A stretch of DNA of 64,000 nucleotides from a virus, in IMG/VR virus record IMGVR_UViG_3300042934_000619, positions 1 through 64,000 of that record. One strand, given 5' to 3'. This document shows, one piece after another, positions 364-63,034 of this stretch. Under the pieces are notes generated by a model, which saw nothing but the letters and a program-made list of their open reading frames with translations, was not told the origin of the DNA and searched no databases. The translations under genes and the position numbers were made by a program. Within the stretch, counting starts at the first letter, position 1. Each line of letters begins with the position of its first letter.

Positions 364-849
364 ATGACCACACTGACCGAGCTGATCAAGCACGACAACG
401 TGCAGGCGCACTGGTTCTGGACGCACAGCGTCAGCACCGGACCGTACGACCAGTACGAGGTGTACGACGTCGTGTTCGTGCGGAACACCGACGAGACCGC
501 CCTCAACGGCGGCAACACCCGAACCACCCTGCACCTGCGAGGCATCAGCGATTGCACCGCCAACGGCATGAACAAGCACGGCGGGAAGCTGATCTACCCC
601 GACCCCGTCGAAACGCTGGCCCACGTGGTGGCCGACGCGCACATCGCGAACATGTACCGCACGTTCGCCGGATGGGCGGACGACCAGCGCGACATGAGCC
701 TCAGCTACCGGGAAGCGCTGGCTGACTTCGAGGACTGGGAGATCCATCGTGCCCGGCACGCGGAGATCTCACGCTGGCTCGGGCAGGAGGACAGCGACGC
801 TTACGACGAGTACGTGAAGGCGGCGCAGAAGTACGCCGCCGAGCACTGA
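364..849 (+). CDS. hypothetical protein
   Basis: RBS GAAGGAG, high GC3. Confidence 0.85.
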   Translation: MTTLTELIKHDNVQAHWFWTHSVSTGPYDQYEVYDVVFVRNTDETALNGGNTRTTLHLRGISDCTANGMNKHGGKLIYPDPVETLAHVVADAHIANMYRTFAGWADDQRDMSLSYREALADFEDWEIHRARHAEISRWLGQEDSDAYDEYVKAAQKYAAEH

Positions 850-850
850 A

Positions 851-866
851 TGTTCCACGTGAAACA
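851..866. repeat. parS-type palindrome 3
   Basis: TGTTCCACGTGAAACA just after the stop codon ending at 849. Confidence 0.85.
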
Positions 867-924
867 TCGACGTGCCGTCGGCATCGCACCCCGCTCGCCG
901 GGGTGTGGTGCCGGAGCCATGCAT

Positions 925-940
925 GGTTCCACGTGAAACA
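925..940. repeat. parS-type palindrome 4
   Basis: GGTTCCACGTGAAACA upstream of GTG at 960. Confidence 0.8.
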
Positions 941-959
941 TCGAGACAGGGGAGAGACC

Positions 960-1226
960 GTGAACAACCGTGTGCGCACCTACCTGATGGACGCCGACGG
1001 GCCGCCTGTCCTGCGAGTGATCCTGCCCGGCGGAGTCGGCACCGTGGAGATCGAGACCGGCCTGACCACCGCCGACGGCAGGCCGCGCGTGCGGGTCGAC
1101 GTCACCTCCGACACCACCCGCTACGGACCGGCCACCGACGGCAACTCCTACGCCGTGACCAACGGCGACCCCGGACCGGGCGTCGTGTTCGTGACGGGGG
1201 AGCAGCCGGGGCAGGAGCAGCCATGA
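960..1226 (+). CDS. hypothetical protein, paralogue of 11993..12304
   Basis: GTG start after GGGGAG; shares LP.G.G.V.I.TG...G.P.V.V.V.S.T...PA.DG..Y. Confidence 0.8.
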   Translation: MNNRVRTYLMDADGPPVLRVILPGGVGTVEIETGLTTADGRPRVRVDVTSDTTRYGPATDGNSYAVTNGDPGPGVVFVTGEQPGQEQP

Positions 1227-49421: not shown

Positions 49422-49522
49422 GGGCGGGTAGCTCAATGGGCGCATGAGGAGGTGGCCACCTTCGATTGCATATGCCGATGGTAGAGCGCCGGAGGTTGCG
49501 GGTTCGAGTCCCGTCCCGTCCA
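49422..49522 (+). ncRNA. tRNA-like RNA: Ala-identity acceptor, 49-nt D-loop, no anticodon arm
   Basis: GGGCGGG/CCCGTCC-A (G3-U70, A73), TAGCTC...GAGC, GCGGG-TTCGAGT-CCCGT; only 10 nt between D and T stems. Confidence 0.75.
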
Positions 49523-49582
49523 CGCAGGGTGCGCCAGAGATGTCTGCCGTCGGGTGGACGCGCACGGAGACCCGACACCGCG

Positions 49583-49618
49583 AAGCGTCCGAACGTGTGA
49601 TCCAGTTCGGACGCTTTT
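49583..49618 (+). terminator. intrinsic terminator
   Basis: AAGCGTCCGAAC...GTTCGGACGCTTTT. Confidence 0.7.
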
Positions 49619-49661
49619 GCTGTATCATTCTGCATAGGCAGGCGAATGGAAAACCGGGGAA

Positions 49662-51290: not shown

Positions 51291-51319
51291 TTGACAGGTC
51301 GGGTTGACGAACGTATAAT
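51291..51319 (+). promoter_or_regulatory. consensus sigma70 promoter for the replication operon
   Basis: TTGACA-N17-TATAAT exact. Confidence 0.85.
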
Positions 51320-51376
51320 CTCCCATCCGGCGAGATCCGGTGTTATCTTCCTGCTCTGAGGCAGGAAGGCAGACAT

Positions 51377-59992: not shown

Positions 59993-60022
59993 TTGACCTT
60001 GAGGGCGGGGACCCGATAGGTT
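59993..60022 (+). promoter_or_regulatory. HrdB-type promoter for the Y-RNA/ro operon
   Basis: TTGACC-N18-TAGGTT. Confidence 0.65.
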
Positions 60023-60080
60023 GAACACATCGAACGACAGGTGCGAAGGGTACAGCTGCTTCTTTCGTTCGGAAGTTTTT

Positions 60081-60217
60081 CTGTCTGGTGCGCAGACGAC
60101 GGATACTTCACTGTTAATGAAGAGGTCCGGGGTTCGAGTCCCCGCCCGCTGGTAAAAAGGTGGGTAGCTCAGTTGGTAGAGCACTTACGTTTCCGTTGTC
60201 GACTTGATCTCAGACAG
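60081..60217 (+). ncRNA. Y-RNA-like element 1 with permuted tRNA-Asn(GTT) domain
   Basis: Terminal stem CTGTCTG/CAGACAG; GTGCGCAG...TGATCT; arm order anticodon, T, acceptor hairpin, D. Confidence 0.85.
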
Positions 60218-60237
60218 TTCAATTCAAAAGTGCGCAA

Positions 60238-60312
60238 GCGTCCGGTGCGAAGGCAACGACGGCTACTTCTTTTGGTGAAATCACGCCGTCACGCCGTACT
60301 GATCTCGGACGC
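60238..60312 (+). ncRNA. Y-RNA-like element 2 (short, no tRNA domain)
   Basis: GCGTCCG/CGGACGC stem; GTGCGAAG, TACTTC, TGATCT. Confidence 0.75.
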
Positions 60313-60321
60313 GTACAACTT

Positions 60322-60461
60322 GTGCCTGGTGCGCAGATGAGGAGTTCTTCGCCTTGGGAGCGGGAGGTCGCGGGTTCAAATCCCGTTCGGTCGGCAGAGC
60401 TGACCGGTAGCTCAGTCTGGAAGAGCGCCTACGATCGCCTCGTCGACTTGATCTCAGGCAC
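60322..60461 (+). ncRNA. Y-RNA-like element 3 with permuted tRNA-Pro(TGG) domain
   Basis: GTGCCTG/CAGGCAC stem; TTCGC-CTTGGGA-GCGGG, T-arm, acceptor hairpin, D-arm. Confidence 0.85.
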
Positions 60462-60471
60462 GAAAATCAGA

Positions 60472-60592
60472 TGTCCGGTGCGCAGGACGACGCGTTCATC
60501 GATGGTTCGACCCCACCCGGGAGTCCCTCGCAAGAGGCTCGCTCCTGTTGCCCACTTGGGGGCAGCTCGCGTTTCCGATCTGATCTCGGACA
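60472..60592 (+). ncRNA. Y-RNA-like element 4 (YrlA-type, T/acceptor/D arms, no anticodon arm)
   Basis: TGTCCG/CGGACA stem; GGTTCGACCC T-loop; conserved flanking motifs. Confidence 0.78.
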
Positions 60593-60598
60593 GTACAA

Positions 60599-60750
60599 GG
60601 GTGCGTAGCTCAGAAGGTAGAGCGGCCCGAAAACGGACGGGCGGCGTGTCGAGACGGTTGCGGATGCACCGAATGGCTCTCGCAGGGTCTGTAGGGAAGC
60701 GCGTTTTCCAAGCTCGGCTCACGGCGCGGGTTCGAGTCCCGTCGCATCCA
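60599..60750 (+). ncRNA. tRNA-like RNA: Ala-identity acceptor, 8-nt anticodon loop, roughly 80-nt variable-arm insert
   Basis: GGGTGCG/CGCATCC-A (G3-U70, A73), TAGCTCAGAAGGTAGAGC, GCGGG-TTCGAGT-CCCGT. Confidence 0.75.
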
Positions 60751-60863
60751 CGGCACATAATCGGCTCCGACGTCCCTACTCGACTTCAGTCGTCGGAGAA
60801 ACGAGGACTCTGGCATTGACGATGGTTATGTCCTCGTTGCCCCGGCGCAAGCCGGGGTTACCC

Positions 60864-60938
60864 GGGAGGCCCTGGCCAGGCACACGGCTAAAACACCGGC
60901 GCACCCGGTGCGAGACGGTTCAAGTCCGTCAACTCCCA
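60864..60938 (+). tRNA. degenerate tRNA-Cys(GCA)-like element
   Basis: CACCG-GCGCACC-CGGTG, GACGG-TTCAAGT-CCGTC; acceptor only 5 bp. Confidence 0.4.
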
Positions 60939-60940
60939 CT

Positions 60941-61027
60941 GGTTCCTGGTGCGAAGCCACCACGGGTACTTCATTTCTCTCTCAAAGAAACCCGAACCCC
61001 GTATCGGCACCCCTGATCTCAGGAACC
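60941..61027 (+). ncRNA. Y-RNA-like element 5 (short, pyrimidine-rich loop)
   Basis: GGTTCCTG/CAGGAACC stem; GTGCGAAG, TACTTC, TGATCT; immediately upstream of ro. Confidence 0.78.
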
Positions 61028-61073
61028 GCATGACCACCGGCACGACCGGTGCGACAGGAAGGAAGATGGAGAC

Positions 61074-62756
61074 ATGGCGCGCTTCAACTCGCGTGGACAC
61101 CGGGCGAAGCCTGCGGTGGCGACGGTAAGCAGTCCGATCGGTACTGCCACGAAGAAGGCGAACACCCGTACGTTCGAAGGCGGCGCGGGATACACGCGTG
61201 ATGCCAAGACGGAGCTGTTCCTGCGTGCGACCGGTGCGTTCCACGGCGGCGAGGGCAGCTTCTACGAGTCCGCCGACAAGCGCGACAACCGGCTTCGTGA
61301 GCTGGTACGTACGATCGCGATCGAAGACCCGGACTGGGGATTCGAGTTCGCGCGCTGGCTCCGGTCCGAGGGTCACATGCGCACGGCATCGCTGATGTTC
61401 GCCGTCGAGTACGTGCACGAGCGACTCGATGCGGAAGCGCAGGAGCCGCGCACCACCAAGTACACCAACCGTCAGATCATCGACGTCGTATGCCAGCGTC
61501 CCGACGAGCCTGGCGAGATCCTCGCGATCTGGACGGCGTGGTACGGGCGGAACATCCCGCAGTCGGTCAAGCGCGGCGTCGCCGACGCGGTTCGGCGTCT
61601 GTACAGCGAGCGCTCGCTGCTCAAGTACGACACGGACTCGAAGGCGTACCGCTTCGCCGACGTGCTGGATCTGACGCACCCGACGCCGTCCCCCGAGAAG
61701 GCCGCATGGCAGGGCCTGCTGTTCTCGTACGCCCTCAACCGGCGGCACGGACGTGGGGATGACATCCCCAGCACGCTGGATATCATCCGCAACAACGCCT
61801 CGTTCCGAGCGCGGGCGGCTGAGACGCACTCGTTGCTGTGCTCGCCGGACGCTCTGCGTGCAGCGGGCATGACGTGGGAGGACGCGCTGTCCCTCGCGGG
61901 CCAAGTAGGCGTCGACAAGCGCAAGGTCTGGGAGGCCATGATCCCCTCCATGGGGATCATGGCGCTGATCCGCAACCTGCGGAACTTCGACCAGGCTGGC
62001 GTCTCCGACGAGGTGGCCATGACGGTCATGGAGCGCCTGGCCAACCCCGAGGAGATCGCCCGGTCCAAGCAGTTCCCGTTCCGGTTCCTCGCCGCGCACC
62101 GCGCGACCAAGGACTCCCTGCGGTGGGCGTGGCCGCTGGAGCAGGCGCTTGGTCACTCGCTGGTCAACGTCCCCCGGCTCGACGGCCGGACGCTGATCCT
62201 CGTCGACCGGTCGCCGTCCATGTTCCCGGAGTACGACCACTGGTTCCCGACGCTGAAGAAGTCGGACATCAGCCGCGCCGACCAGGCTGCGGTGTTCGGC
62301 GCCGCGCTGGCCGTCCGTGCAGAGCAGCCGACGCTCGTGGAGTTCGGCGGCGGCTCGCGGGTGATCACCTTCCAGCGCGGTACGTCCGTGCTGAAGCTGG
62401 TCGACAAGTTCTACCGGGACCCGGGTACGGACATCCCGAGCGCGGTGAAGAAGCATTACGACGGGCACGACCGGGTCGTCATCCTCACCGACGAGCAGAC
62501 CCGCCCCGGGTCCCTTCCGTCGAACATGTGGCGGAGCTACGGTGGCATGCGTGAGACGGAGGTCAACGACCTCGTCCCGAAGCACGTCCCTGTATTCATG
62601 TGGAATTTCGCCGGTTACTCGGCGGCGGCCATGCCGTCCGGGAACGAGGCGCGGTTCCACCTCGGCGGACTCACCGACAAGGCATTCCAACTCATTCCGA
62701 TTCTGGAATCCGGAGTGAATGGCAGCTGGCCCTGGGAACTGGACAGCACACCCTGA
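61074..62756 (+). CDS. rsr: Ro60/Rsr TROVE-vWA RNA-binding protein
   Basis: FYESA..R, WLR....MRT, QRPDEPGE, KRGVADAV, LKYD, L.HP.P, ALIRNLRNF, SKQFPFRF; C-terminal vWA (LVDRS.SM, GTD, LTDEQ). Confidence 0.93.
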   Translation: MARFNSRGHRAKPAVATVSSPIGTATKKANTRTFEGGAGYTRDAKTELFLRATGAFHGGEGSFYESADKRDNRLRELVRTIAIEDPDWGFEFARWLRSEGHMRTASLMFAVEYVHERLDAEAQEPRTTKYTNRQIIDVVCQRPDEPGEILAIWTAWYGRNIPQSVKRGVADAVRRLYSERSLLKYDTDSKAYRFADVLDLTHPTPSPEKAAWQGLLFSYALNRRHGRGDDIPSTLDIIRNNASFRARAAETHSLLCSPDALRAAGMTWEDALSLAGQVGVDKRKVWEAMIPSMGIMALIRNLRNFDQAGVSDEVAMTVMERLANPEEIARSKQFPFRFLAAHRATKDSLRWAWPLEQALGHSLVNVPRLDGRTLILVDRSPSMFPEYDHWFPTLKKSDISRADQAAVFGAALAVRAEQPTLVEFGGGSRVITFQRGTSVLKLVDKFYRDPGTDIPSAVKKHYDGHDRVVILTDEQTRPGSLPSNMWRSYGGMRETEVNDLVPKHVPVFMWNFAGYSAAAMPSGNEARFHLGGLTDKAFQLIPILESGVNGSWPWELDSTP

Positions 62757-62960: not shown

Positions 62961-63034
62961 GACCTCGTAGCTCAGTTGGATAGAGCGGTGGATTCCTAAT
63001 CCGCAGGTCGCAGGTTCGAGTCCTGCCGTGGTCA
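62961..63034 (+). tRNA. tRNA-Arg (CCT)
   Basis: Canonical cloverleaf, loop TT-CCT-AA. Confidence 0.93.

What the first reader, a model, noticed from the sequence alone, without database searches (positions are those of the whole stretch)
49422..49522. Anticodon-less tRNA-like RNA with complete alanine identity and a hairpin cargo in the D-loop
Seen: G1-C72, G2-C71, G3-U70, A73; perfect T-arm; D-stem GCTC/GAGC closing a 49-nt loop that can fold (GGCGCATG/CATATGCC, GGAGGT/ACCTTC); anticodon arm collapsed to CCGG. Established: AlaRS recognises G3-U70/A73 and ignores the anticodon, as with tmRNA. Inference: an alanylatable RNA that cannot decode and is immune to anticodon nucleases; possible roles are ribosome rescue or stalling, EF-Tu/AlaRS decoy, stringent-response modulation, or non-ribosomal Ala donor.
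Basis: partly seen in the sequence, partly recalled or inferred. Interest (0 to 1): 0.85.

Follow-up and report, generated by a model that had tools for sequence, protein, structure and literature searches.

The report
Alanine-type phage mini-tRNA without anticodon
A soil phage carries a genuine tRNA look-alike that has lost its codon-reading arm but keeps the marks for loading alanine; it belongs to a widespread family of phage 'mini-tRNAs' for which I found no published description, although its extra hairpin and its alanine mark are both absent from its one retrievable sister phage.

Summary
Window 49422-49522(+) scores 39.4 bits on Rfam tRNA (cut-off 29), with a 44-nt D-loop insert, no anticodon arm, G1-C72/G2-C71/G3-U70/A73 and a perfect T-arm. 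The window is part of a 102-kb high-GC phage with terminal repeats, which also encodes Ro60 and a Y-RNA array.

New here: without a 42-nt insert flanked by ATGG repeats, the element is a 59-nt "mini-tRNA". This layout occurs in at least 115 IMG/VR phage stretches. Its five nearest neighbours include four of 11 distinct minis that all keep G1G2G3/U70C71C72/A73 while pairs 4-7 covary. That supports alanine identity as a selected trait.

It has G3-C70, no recognisable D-arm and no similar insert. The best-conserved part is a hairpin just downstream (49529-49565, 98% identical), followed by a covarying terminator.

Best reading (0.4): a non-decoding RNA matured by tRNA-processing enzymes and chargeable by AlaRS; its downstream role is unknown.

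Earlier notes of this scan flagged anticodon-less mini-tRNAs in other phages.

The parts
49422..49522 (+). tRNA-like gene (101 nt): an alanine-type mini-tRNA with an inserted hairpin and no anticodon arm
   Evidence: Rfam RF00005 39.4 bits, model 1-71. The mini-tRNA model R1 built here scores 49.7 bits, E 7e-15.
49422..49428 (+). Acceptor 5' strand GGGCGGG. It pairs with 49515-49521 (CCCGUCC), including G3-U70. A73 is at 49522 and no CCA is encoded.
   Evidence: Sequence. Pair probabilities 0.94-0.96. The phage's three true tRNAs also lack an encoded CCA.
49431..49487 (+). D-arm: stem GCUC (49431-49434) / GAGC (49484-49487) enclosing a 49-nt loop
   Evidence: Rfam alignment. The constrained fold is -40.5 kcal/mol against a minimum of -42.1.
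49440..49481 (+). 42-nt insert in the D-loop. It is flanked by an ATGG direct repeat, so its boundary is ambiguous by 4 nt. It folds as GGAGGU-GGCC-ACCUUC on a 7/8-bp lower stem.
   Evidence: Sequence; folds. Removing it leaves a canonical 59-nt mini-tRNA that is 78-81% identical to four other alanine-type minis. It is unique in the genome, and the D-loop-insert layout has no IMG/VR counterpart.
49488..49497 (+). Linker GCCGGAGGUU: position 26, the CCGG remnant of the anticodon stem, and the variable loop AGGUU
   Evidence: Rfam alignment shows the 13-nt deletion. The layout is the same as linker GGCGCAGGUU of L131:1385-1443.
49498..49514 (+). T-arm GCGGG UUCGAGU CCCGU
   Evidence: It is kept in the sister phage through a both-sided change (C50-G64 to U-A) and a one-sided change (G49-U65 to G-C).
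49529..49565 (+). Highly conserved trailer hairpin: GUGCGC, a 7-nt bulge CAGAGAU, GUCUGCC, loop, GGUGGAC, GCGCAC
   Evidence: Window 49521-49565 is 97.8% identical to the sister phage in a neighbourhood of 55-70% identity. Consensus fold. A 1-nt indel rules out protein coding.
49580..49620 (+). Intrinsic-terminator-like hairpin (15-bp stem, 10-nt loop) followed by UUUU
   Evidence: Four pairs changed on both sides against the sister phage with pairing kept. The simple terminator scan missed it because its loop is longer than 8 nt.

Best explanation
This is a functional, tRNA-derived but non-decoding RNA gene. It belongs to the alanine-identity branch of a widespread class of phage 'mini-tRNAs' (acceptor stem, D-arm, short linker, T-arm, no anticodon arm). 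Here it carries an extra, lineage-specific 42-nt hairpin in the D-loop. Proposed mechanism, step by step. (1) It is transcribed on the + strand as part of a small non-coding unit that ends at the terminator 49580-49620; this is supported by a covarying terminator. (2) Host RNase P cuts before G49422, and RNase Z or exonucleases cut after A49522. These enzymes need only the acceptor/T-arm minihelix, which is exactly the part kept by compensatory changes; the cleavage itself is inferred. (3) The host CCA-adding enzyme adds CCA; inferred, and the phage's true tRNAs also lack an encoded CCA. (4) Host AlaRS reads G3-U70/A73 and ignores the anticodon, so it charges the RNA with alanine; inferred from established minihelix-Ala biochemistry and from the invariance of this set in 11 other phage minis. 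(5) The charged RNA cannot pair with a codon. It acts off the decoding path, most plausibly as a stable, 3'-protected ligand for acceptor-arm binders (EF-Tu, SmpB/ribosome in the manner of a tmRNA tRNA-like domain, or an aminoacyl-transferase). Cleavage also releases the very conserved downstream hairpin RNA (49523-49620) as a second product. The end use is not known.
For: The tRNA-likeness is significant. The class is real. At least 115 IMG/VR stretches match a D-arm followed 6-16 nt later by a T-arm. Of 94 unique sequences, 71 have at least 6/7 acceptor pairs, against about 1 expected by chance. They score 38-56 bits on Rfam tRNA. The window element without its insert is 59 nt, and four of its five nearest neighbours are alanine-type minis. 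The alanine set is invariant in 11 diverse minis while pairs 4-7 covary, and none has G3-C70; the background is 3 of 9. A second alanine-type tRNA-like lies in the same phage (60599-60750, 38.9 bits), with an acceptor identical to the unrelated mini L221. The acceptor and T helices are kept in the sister phage with compensatory changes (4-69 C-G to A-U; 50-64 C-G to U-A), and the terminator has four compensatory pairs. The trailer is an island of conservation. M. smegmatis YrlA, a related tRNA mimic, is known to be cut by RNase P and to receive CCA (PMC4201824).
Against: There are no expression, processing or charging data. The only fetched orthologue has G3-C70, an A-C mismatch at 7-66, no Rfam tRNA match and a dissimilar 103-nt middle. 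The orthologue of the second element also lacks G3-U70 and A73. Whatever these loci share therefore does not need alanylation. The 42-nt insert could disturb the D/T elbow. No partner protein is evident. The 5' acceptor strand of the orthologue was located by complementarity, which carries some ascertainment risk, although the minimum-energy fold picks it. The alanine-mini enrichment rests on small numbers and on a pattern that fixed C71C72A73.
Confidence: 0.4

Rival explanations
1. Processing handle only. The tRNA-shaped minihelix is a punctuation mark, like plant-mitochondrial t-elements or MALAT1 mascRNA. It tells RNase P and RNase Z where to cut, so as to release or stabilise the conserved downstream hairpin RNA or the variable cargo. 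Alanine identity in this phage is then an inherited relic with no role.
For: Between the two phages, only the acceptor/T-arm helices, the trailer hairpin and the terminator are conserved or compensated. The D-arm, the insert and G3-U70 are not. RNase P and RNase Z need only the minihelix (established knowledge).
Against: It does not explain why G3-U70/A73 is invariant in 11 diverse minis whose other acceptor pairs covary. It also does not explain why two elements in this phage both carry the full set.
Confidence: 0.25
2. A decaying tRNA gene: a pseudogene left in a variable tRNA/ncRNA islet after a 13-nt deletion and a 42-nt insertion. The nearby conservation would belong to an unrelated regulatory element downstream.
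For: ARAGORN does not call it. The sister phage has a normal tRNA-Arg and a scrambled element in the same gap. The ATGG repeats look like an insertion scar. Odd or defective tRNA-likes occur in more distant relatives.
Against: All 12 pairs of the acceptor/T minihelix are intact in a region where the flanks are only 55-70% identical, and changes against the sister phage are compensatory. The same anticodon-less layout recurs in many unrelated phages, which is not what random decay gives.
Confidence: 0.12
3. An uncharged protein ligand or decoy. The RNA would act as a sponge for host factors or defence toxins that act on the tRNA acceptor end or elbow, or as a tRNA-mimic partner of the phage's own Ro60/Y-RNA system.
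For: The phage encodes a TROVE/Ro60 protein with an array of YrlA-like tRNA mimics 11 kb downstream, and a sister alanine-type element lies inside that array. An element without an anticodon is invisible to anticodon nucleases (logic only).
Against: The element has no Ro-binding handle motifs (GGUGCG.AG ... UGAUCUC) beside it, and YrlA scores only 17.3 bits against a cut-off of 69. It lies outside the Ro60 locus. No defence or counter-defence gene is adjacent.
Confidence: 0.12
4. An integration-site remnant (attP-like copy of the 3' part of a host tRNA gene).
For: The conserved block begins in the T-loop and runs past the 3' end of the tRNA-like.
Against: The tRNA part differs at 5 of 23 positions between the phages while the non-tRNA trailer is nearly identical, which is the reverse of an att core. 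A complete 5' half is present. The genome has direct terminal repeats. No integrase was looked for.
Confidence: 0.02

Closest known systems
tRNA-like domain of tmRNA (SsrA)
   Same: Acceptor stem with G3-U70 and A73, a T-arm and no anticodon arm. tmRNA is charged by AlaRS without any anticodon reading (established knowledge, cited in PMC4201824).
   Different: tmRNA has no D-stem. It carries its large insert (pseudoknots plus a tag reading frame) in the anticodon position and works with SmpB. Here there is a canonical D-stem, a 42-nt hairpin in the D-loop, no tag frame, no ARAGORN or Rfam tmRNA match and no phage SmpB.
YrlA, the tRNA-like bacterial and phage Y RNA (Rfam RF02553; Chen et al. 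2014, PMC4201824)
   Same: A tRNA mimic with D- and T-arms and no decoding function, encoded by actinophages that carry Ro60. This phage has such RNAs at 60096-60205 and 60363-60429. M. smegmatis YrlA is cut by RNase P and receives CCA.
   Different: YrlA is circularly permuted (T-arm, closed acceptor-like hairpin, D-arm) and sits on a Ro60-binding stem. The finding has the normal tRNA order, open acceptor ends and no Ro handle, and it scores 17.3 bits against a cut-off of 69.
Canonical tRNA-Ala and the minihelix-Ala substrates of AlaRS (own knowledge: Francklyn and Schimmel; Hou and Schimmel)
   Same: G1-C72, G2-C71, G3-U70 and A73, stacked on a T-arm. This is the minimal substrate AlaRS charges in vitro.
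   Different: There is no anticodon arm, pair 4-69 is C-G rather than G-C, the D-loop is enlarged, and the element is encoded by a phage that has no true tRNA-Ala.
Phage anticodon-arm-less mini-tRNAs
   Same: Identical layout once the insert is removed (59 nt), 78-81% identity to four alanine-type members, 49.7 bits on R1.
   Different: It is the only member found with a large D-loop insert. The Cys-rich ~70-aa neighbour gene seen beside 3 of 11 alanine-type minis is absent from this phage.
t-elements of plant mitochondria and mascRNA of MALAT1 (own knowledge; mascRNA is Rfam RF01684)
   Same: tRNA-shaped modules inside longer transcripts that recruit RNase P and RNase Z to define RNA ends. 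mascRNA also receives CCA and is not known to decode.
   Different: They belong to other kingdoms and have no alanine identity set. mascRNA scores only 13.2 bits here. Cleavage of the present element is untested.
Non-proteinogenic tRNA-Gly of staphylococci
   Same: tRNA species kept for aminoacyl transfer away from the ribosome.
   Different: Those are full cloverleaves with anticodons, and their partner transferases are known. No candidate transferase is adjacent here.

Membership tests
Canonical tRNA (Rfam RF00005) | Score at or above the family's gathering cut-off over the full model | tested here: met
   39.4 bits against 29, model 1-71.
Canonical tRNA (Rfam RF00005) | Anticodon arm: 5-bp stem with a 7-nt loop that presents an anticodon | tested here: not met
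   13 model positions are deleted and only CCGG remains. ARAGORN makes no call with default settings. A relaxed ARAGORN reading (Arg UCG with an 11-nt intron) appeared among 93 mostly spurious calls.
Canonical tRNA (Rfam RF00005) | 7-bp acceptor stem, 5-bp T-stem with a UUCGANU loop, and a 4-bp D-stem | tested here: met
   All are present. The D-stem closes a 49-nt loop and is 1.6 kcal/mol above the minimum-energy fold.
tRNA-Ala identity (AlaRS substrate) | G3-U70 with A73, G1-C72 and G2-C71 | tested here: met
   Read directly from the sequence.
tRNA-Ala identity (AlaRS substrate) | Identity set conserved in orthologues | tested here: not met
   The single orthologue, L003:3814-3948, has G3-C70. 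The orthologue of the second element has G3-C70 and G73.
tRNA-Ala identity (AlaRS substrate) | Actual aminoacylation after CCA addition | not testable with these tools
   Needs an in vitro AlaRS assay or acid-urea Northern blots.
tmRNA | Tag reading frame with a resume codon and pseudoknots, placed between the tRNA-like halves | tested here: not met
   ARAGORN finds no tmRNA. Rfam tmRNA matches only the T-arm, at about 12 bits. The insert is 42 nt.
tmRNA | SmpB partner | tested here: not met
   No SmpB (PF01668) in the complete phage genome. A host SmpB cannot be examined.
YrlA / Y RNA | Permuted order (T-arm, closed acceptor hairpin, D-arm) on a Ro60-binding stem | tested here: not met
   17.3 bits against a cut-off of 69, with many non-canonical pairs. 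The order is the normal tRNA order, and no handle motifs flank the element.
Phage anticodon-arm-less mini-tRNA (A5/R1, defined here) | Acceptor 7 bp, U8 A9, canonical D-arm, 6-16-nt linker, T-arm, acceptor 3' strand | tested here: met
   R1 scores 49.7 bits, E 7e-15, with all model positions matched and the 44-nt insert as the only departure. The 59-nt core is 78-81% identical to four alanine-type members: L200, L223, L131 and L108. R1 also scores true tRNAs, so the absence of an anticodon arm is what assigns the element to the class.
t-element-like processing signal | Cleavage by RNase P and RNase Z in a longer transcript | not testable with these tools
   Only indirect support: minihelix covariation, a conserved trailer and a terminator.

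The most novel reading that the evidence does not exclude
Phages of many lineages encode a family of chargeable but non-decoding alanine mini-tRNAs, in effect free-standing tmRNA-like acceptor domains. These would deliver or sequester activated alanine away from codon reading, for example as tagless mimics or competitors of tmRNA on stalled ribosomes, or as private alanine donors. This phage carries two of them (49422 and 60599). Both have lost G3-U70 in the sister phage, which would fit two parts of one system being lost together.
Probability: 0.22. Interest if true: 0.85.

Novelty: new variant of a known kind. Interest (0 to 1): 0.6.

Why it matters
tRNA mimics that are charged but do not decode are so far represented essentially by tmRNA. 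A family of small phage RNAs that keep exactly the one aminoacylation identity that survives loss of the anticodon (G3-U70/A73) would be a new way for viruses to tap the translation apparatus. It is also directly testable with standard enzymes: RNase P, CCA-adding enzyme, AlaRS, EF-Tu and SmpB. Even if charging proves irrelevant, the element adds to evidence that phages use tRNA-shaped modules as RNA-processing or stability handles. Gene finders miss the 101-nt element studied here, although the tested 55-66-nt minis do score above Rfam's tRNA cut-off.

Tried and rejected
- **More orthologues.** The one metagenome scan returned only the same sister phage. IMG/VR holds only that relative. GTDB genomes hold none. 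GenBank phages are all below 60% PolA identity.
- **More distant relatives** (PolA 43-57%). They have no tRNA-like element near PolA and no homologue of the element or its trailer.
- **Exact collapsed-anticodon pattern.** No hits in IMG/VR.
- **D-loop-insert pattern.** One unrelated hit.
- **YrlA, tmRNA and mascRNA membership.** All rejected on score.
- **Trailer or insert as a coding region.** Rejected: a 1-nt indel breaks every frame.
- **Trailer or insert as antisense to phage genes.** Only chance-level 11-12-mers were found.
- **Homology of the middle region between the two phages.** Not significant; 166 of 500 shuffles score as high.
- **Promoter scan.** Nothing found.
- **Phage-encoded RtcB, SmpB and CCA-adding enzyme.** All absent.
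- **Link between the Cys-rich neighbour gene of other alanine-type minis and this phage.** None.
- **Cultured-phage counterparts of two alanine-type minis.** None at E <= 1e-3.
- **Literature.** Six searches found no description of phage anticodon-less mini-tRNAs. The library holds open-access papers only.

Full report
**Observation.** The element at 49422-49522(+) is as described.
- Acceptor: GGGCGGG/CCCGUCC, with G3-U70 and A73.
- D-stem: GCUC/GAGC, around a 49-nt loop.
- Anticodon region: only CCGG where the arm should be, followed by the variable loop AGGUU.
- T-arm: perfect, GCGGG-UUCGAGU-CCCGU.

Rfam's tRNA model matches it end to end at 39.4 bits (cut-off 29; E 8e-5 for the window). The alignment shows a 44-nt D-loop insertion and a 13-nt deletion of the anticodon hairpin. 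ARAGORN with default settings does not call it. The insert hairpin folds as stated. The canonical D-stem closure is 1.6 kcal/mol above the minimum-energy fold, which uses a local GCUC-AAU-GGGC hairpin instead. The insert is flanked by an ATGG direct repeat; deleting 42 nt restores a textbook D-arm.

**Setting.** The window is the first 64 kb of a complete 102,442-bp virus record with direct terminal repeats. It is high in GC and has only three true tRNA genes (Met, Arg, Leu), none with an encoded CCA. The element lies in a 450-nt non-coding gap in a + strand block, 1.9 kb upstream of DNA polymerase I. Its neighbours are of unknown function. Eleven kilobases downstream the phage encodes a TROVE/Ro60 protein (61074-62756). 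An array of YrlA-like Y RNAs precedes that gene (41.9 and 35.8 bits). Inside the array lies a second tRNA-like element, 60599-60750 (38.9 bits on Rfam tRNA). It also has G1G2G3/U70C71C72/A73, and it carries about 75 extra nucleotides between the D- and T-arms. The phage has no RtcB, SmpB or CCA-adding enzyme.

**The one orthologue.** Only one distinct close relative could be fetched: an IMG/VR contig, which also appears as a longer metagenome contig, with PolA 87% identical. Its syntenic gap holds a normal tRNA-Arg(CCU) and then a 135-nt element (L003:3814-3948).
- What is kept: the ends match the window. The acceptor is GGGAGG(A)/CCCUCCC plus A73, and the T-arm is GUGGG-UUCGACU-CCCAC.
- How the helices changed: 4-69 goes from C-G to A-U and 50-64 from C-G to U-A, both changed on both sides. 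49-65 and 3-70 go from G-U to G-C. 7-66 is broken.
- What is lost: G3-U70 is not conserved. The middle has no significant similarity and no Rfam tRNA match, and it contains a second T-arm-like hairpin.
- Possible shared layout: a 4-bp helix at the D-stem position closing the large insert is possible in both phages, within 2 kcal/mol of the optimum, but it is not demonstrated.
- Second element: its orthologue likewise reads G3-C70 and G73.

**The conserved parts.** The best-conserved stretch lies just downstream of the tRNA-like element. Window 49521-49565 is 97.8% identical in a neighbourhood of 55-70% identity, which ranks with the most conserved parts of PolA. It folds into a bulged 13-bp hairpin. 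Its only two changes fall in loops, and one of them is a 1-nt indel that excludes coding. A terminator-like hairpin (49580-49620) follows, with four pairs changed on both sides. This supports transcription on the + strand ending there.

- Of 94 unique sequences, 71 have at least 6/7 acceptor pairs and an intact T-stem.
- They are 55-66 nt long and score 38-56 bits on Rfam tRNA.
- Some lie in tRNA arrays and others stand alone.
- In an alignment of 59 non-redundant members, every acceptor pair covaries.
- The model built from that alignment scores the window element at 49.7 bits.
- The insert-free 59-nt core is 78-81% identical to its nearest members. Four of the five nearest are alanine-type.

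**The alanine-type subfamily.** A second scan fixed C71C72A73. All 11 distinct minis with a good acceptor stem have G1G2G3 and U70, come from phages of 38-70% GC, and have freely covarying pairs 4-7. None has G3-C70. Among full-length phage tRNAs with G1-C72/G2-C71/A73, 3 of 9 are G3-U70. One mini (L221) has the same acceptor stem as the window's second element. I found no paper describing such RNAs. Earlier notes of this scan flagged anticodon-less mini-tRNAs in other phages. Those notes are unchecked leads, and the class scan was run before I read them.

**Mechanism.** What the sequence and comparisons show:
- a tRNA-derived gene that cannot decode;
- an acceptor/T minihelix kept by compensatory change;
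- a conserved trailer hairpin and a terminator;
- membership in a recurrent phage class whose alanine branch keeps the AlaRS determinants.

What is inferred: RNase P and RNase Z cleavage, CCA addition, charging by AlaRS, and action off the decoding path, with release of the trailer hairpin RNA as a second product. AlaRS is one of the few synthetases that need no anticodon, so alanine identity is what one would expect to survive if charging (or 3'-end protection by charging) is useful. I put 0.4 on this chain. The end use is open.

**Rivals.**
- Processing handle only (0.25). It fits the two-phage comparison best but does not explain the invariant G3-U70 across the class.
- Decaying pseudogene (0.12). 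The compensated helices and the recurrence of the layout argue against it.
- Uncharged decoy or Ro60-linked ligand (0.12). There is no handle, no adjacency and no partner.
- att remnant (0.02).

**Known relatives and novelty.** The element works most like the tRNA-like domain of tmRNA and like minihelix-Ala. It fails membership of tmRNA (no tag frame, D-stem present), of YrlA (not permuted, no Ro handle, 17.3 against 69 bits) and of decoding tRNAs (no anticodon arm). I file it as a new variant of a known kind, tRNA-mimic non-coding RNAs. It is an atypical, insert-bearing member of a mini-tRNA class for which my literature searches found no description.

**Limits.** There are no expression data. 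The alanine-mini statistics are small, and they depend on patterns that fix the D-arm and part of the T-arm.

Noticed in passing
window 60599-60750 (+): A second alanine-identity tRNA-like element (GGGUGCG/CGCAUCC, G3-U70, A73; Rfam tRNA 38.9 bits) inside the Y-RNA array. It has an 8-nt loop on a GCCCG/CGGGC stem and about 75 extra nt before the T-arm. Its orthologue in the sister phage (L007 about 845-996, minus strand) is about 93% identical by eye but reads G3-C70 and G73. Its acceptor stem is identical to that of an unrelated 59-nt mini (L221:6221-6279).
   Followed up: partly
window 60000-62756 (+): A Ro60 (TROVE) gene at 61074-62756, preceded by an array of Y-like RNAs that share GGUGCG[A/C]AG and UGAUCUC[A/G]G handles. 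Two carry YrlA-type permuted tRNA domains (60096-60205 at 41.9 bits; 60363-60429 at 35.8 bits, both below Rfam's cut-off of 69).
   Followed up: partly
loci L099-L224 (IMG/VR contigs); alignment A5, model R1: A widespread class of 55-66-nt anticodon-arm-less mini-tRNAs in phage contigs, with at least 115 stretches from one strict pattern. Several acceptor-sequence families recur, for example AUCCCCU/AGGGGAU, UCCGGUG/CACCGGA and the alanine type GGGNNNN/NNNNUCC-A.
   Followed up: partly
L172:5239-5466(+), L204:1168-1380(-), L222:4532-4747(-): A ~70-aa Cys-rich protein (C-terminal CCxDxGTCxCS, no Pfam match) lies 8-9 nt from the alanine-type mini-tRNA in 3 of 11 loci, upstream in two and downstream in one. 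It has no homologue in the window's phage.
   Followed up: partly
window 49529-49565 and 49580-49620 (+): A bulged hairpin that is 98% identical between two phages whose flanks are 55-70% identical, followed by a terminator with four compensatory pairs. It may be the functional product of the locus. No Rfam family matches it.
   Followed up: partly
window 51317-51361: A 45-nt stretch just upstream of the PolA start that is 100% identical to the sister phage, the joint highest in the 8-kb comparison. Whether it is the end of a gene or a regulatory site was not examined.
   Followed up: no
L003:3543-3614 against window 62961-63034: The sister phage has its tRNA-Arg(CCU) in the gap that holds the finding, whereas the window's tRNA-Arg(CCU) lies beyond the Ro60 gene. 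tRNA genes have therefore moved between these two non-coding islets.
   Followed up: no
L093 1493-1564 (minus strand; G005:63164-63234): A more distant relative (PolA 57% identical over the part recovered) carries, next to a Y-like RNA, a tRNA-like gene with a CCCGG/CCGGG stem and a 6-nt loop. ARAGORN reports 'tRNA-???'. Rfam tRNA scores 42 bits. This is another non-decoding tRNA look-alike in this phage group.
   Followed up: no
Model R1 gives only a 13.7-bit match to its T-arm and acceptor end. Relaxed ARAGORN reads it as tRNA-Pro(UGG) with a 42-nt intron at 37/38, among many spurious calls.
   Followed up: partly
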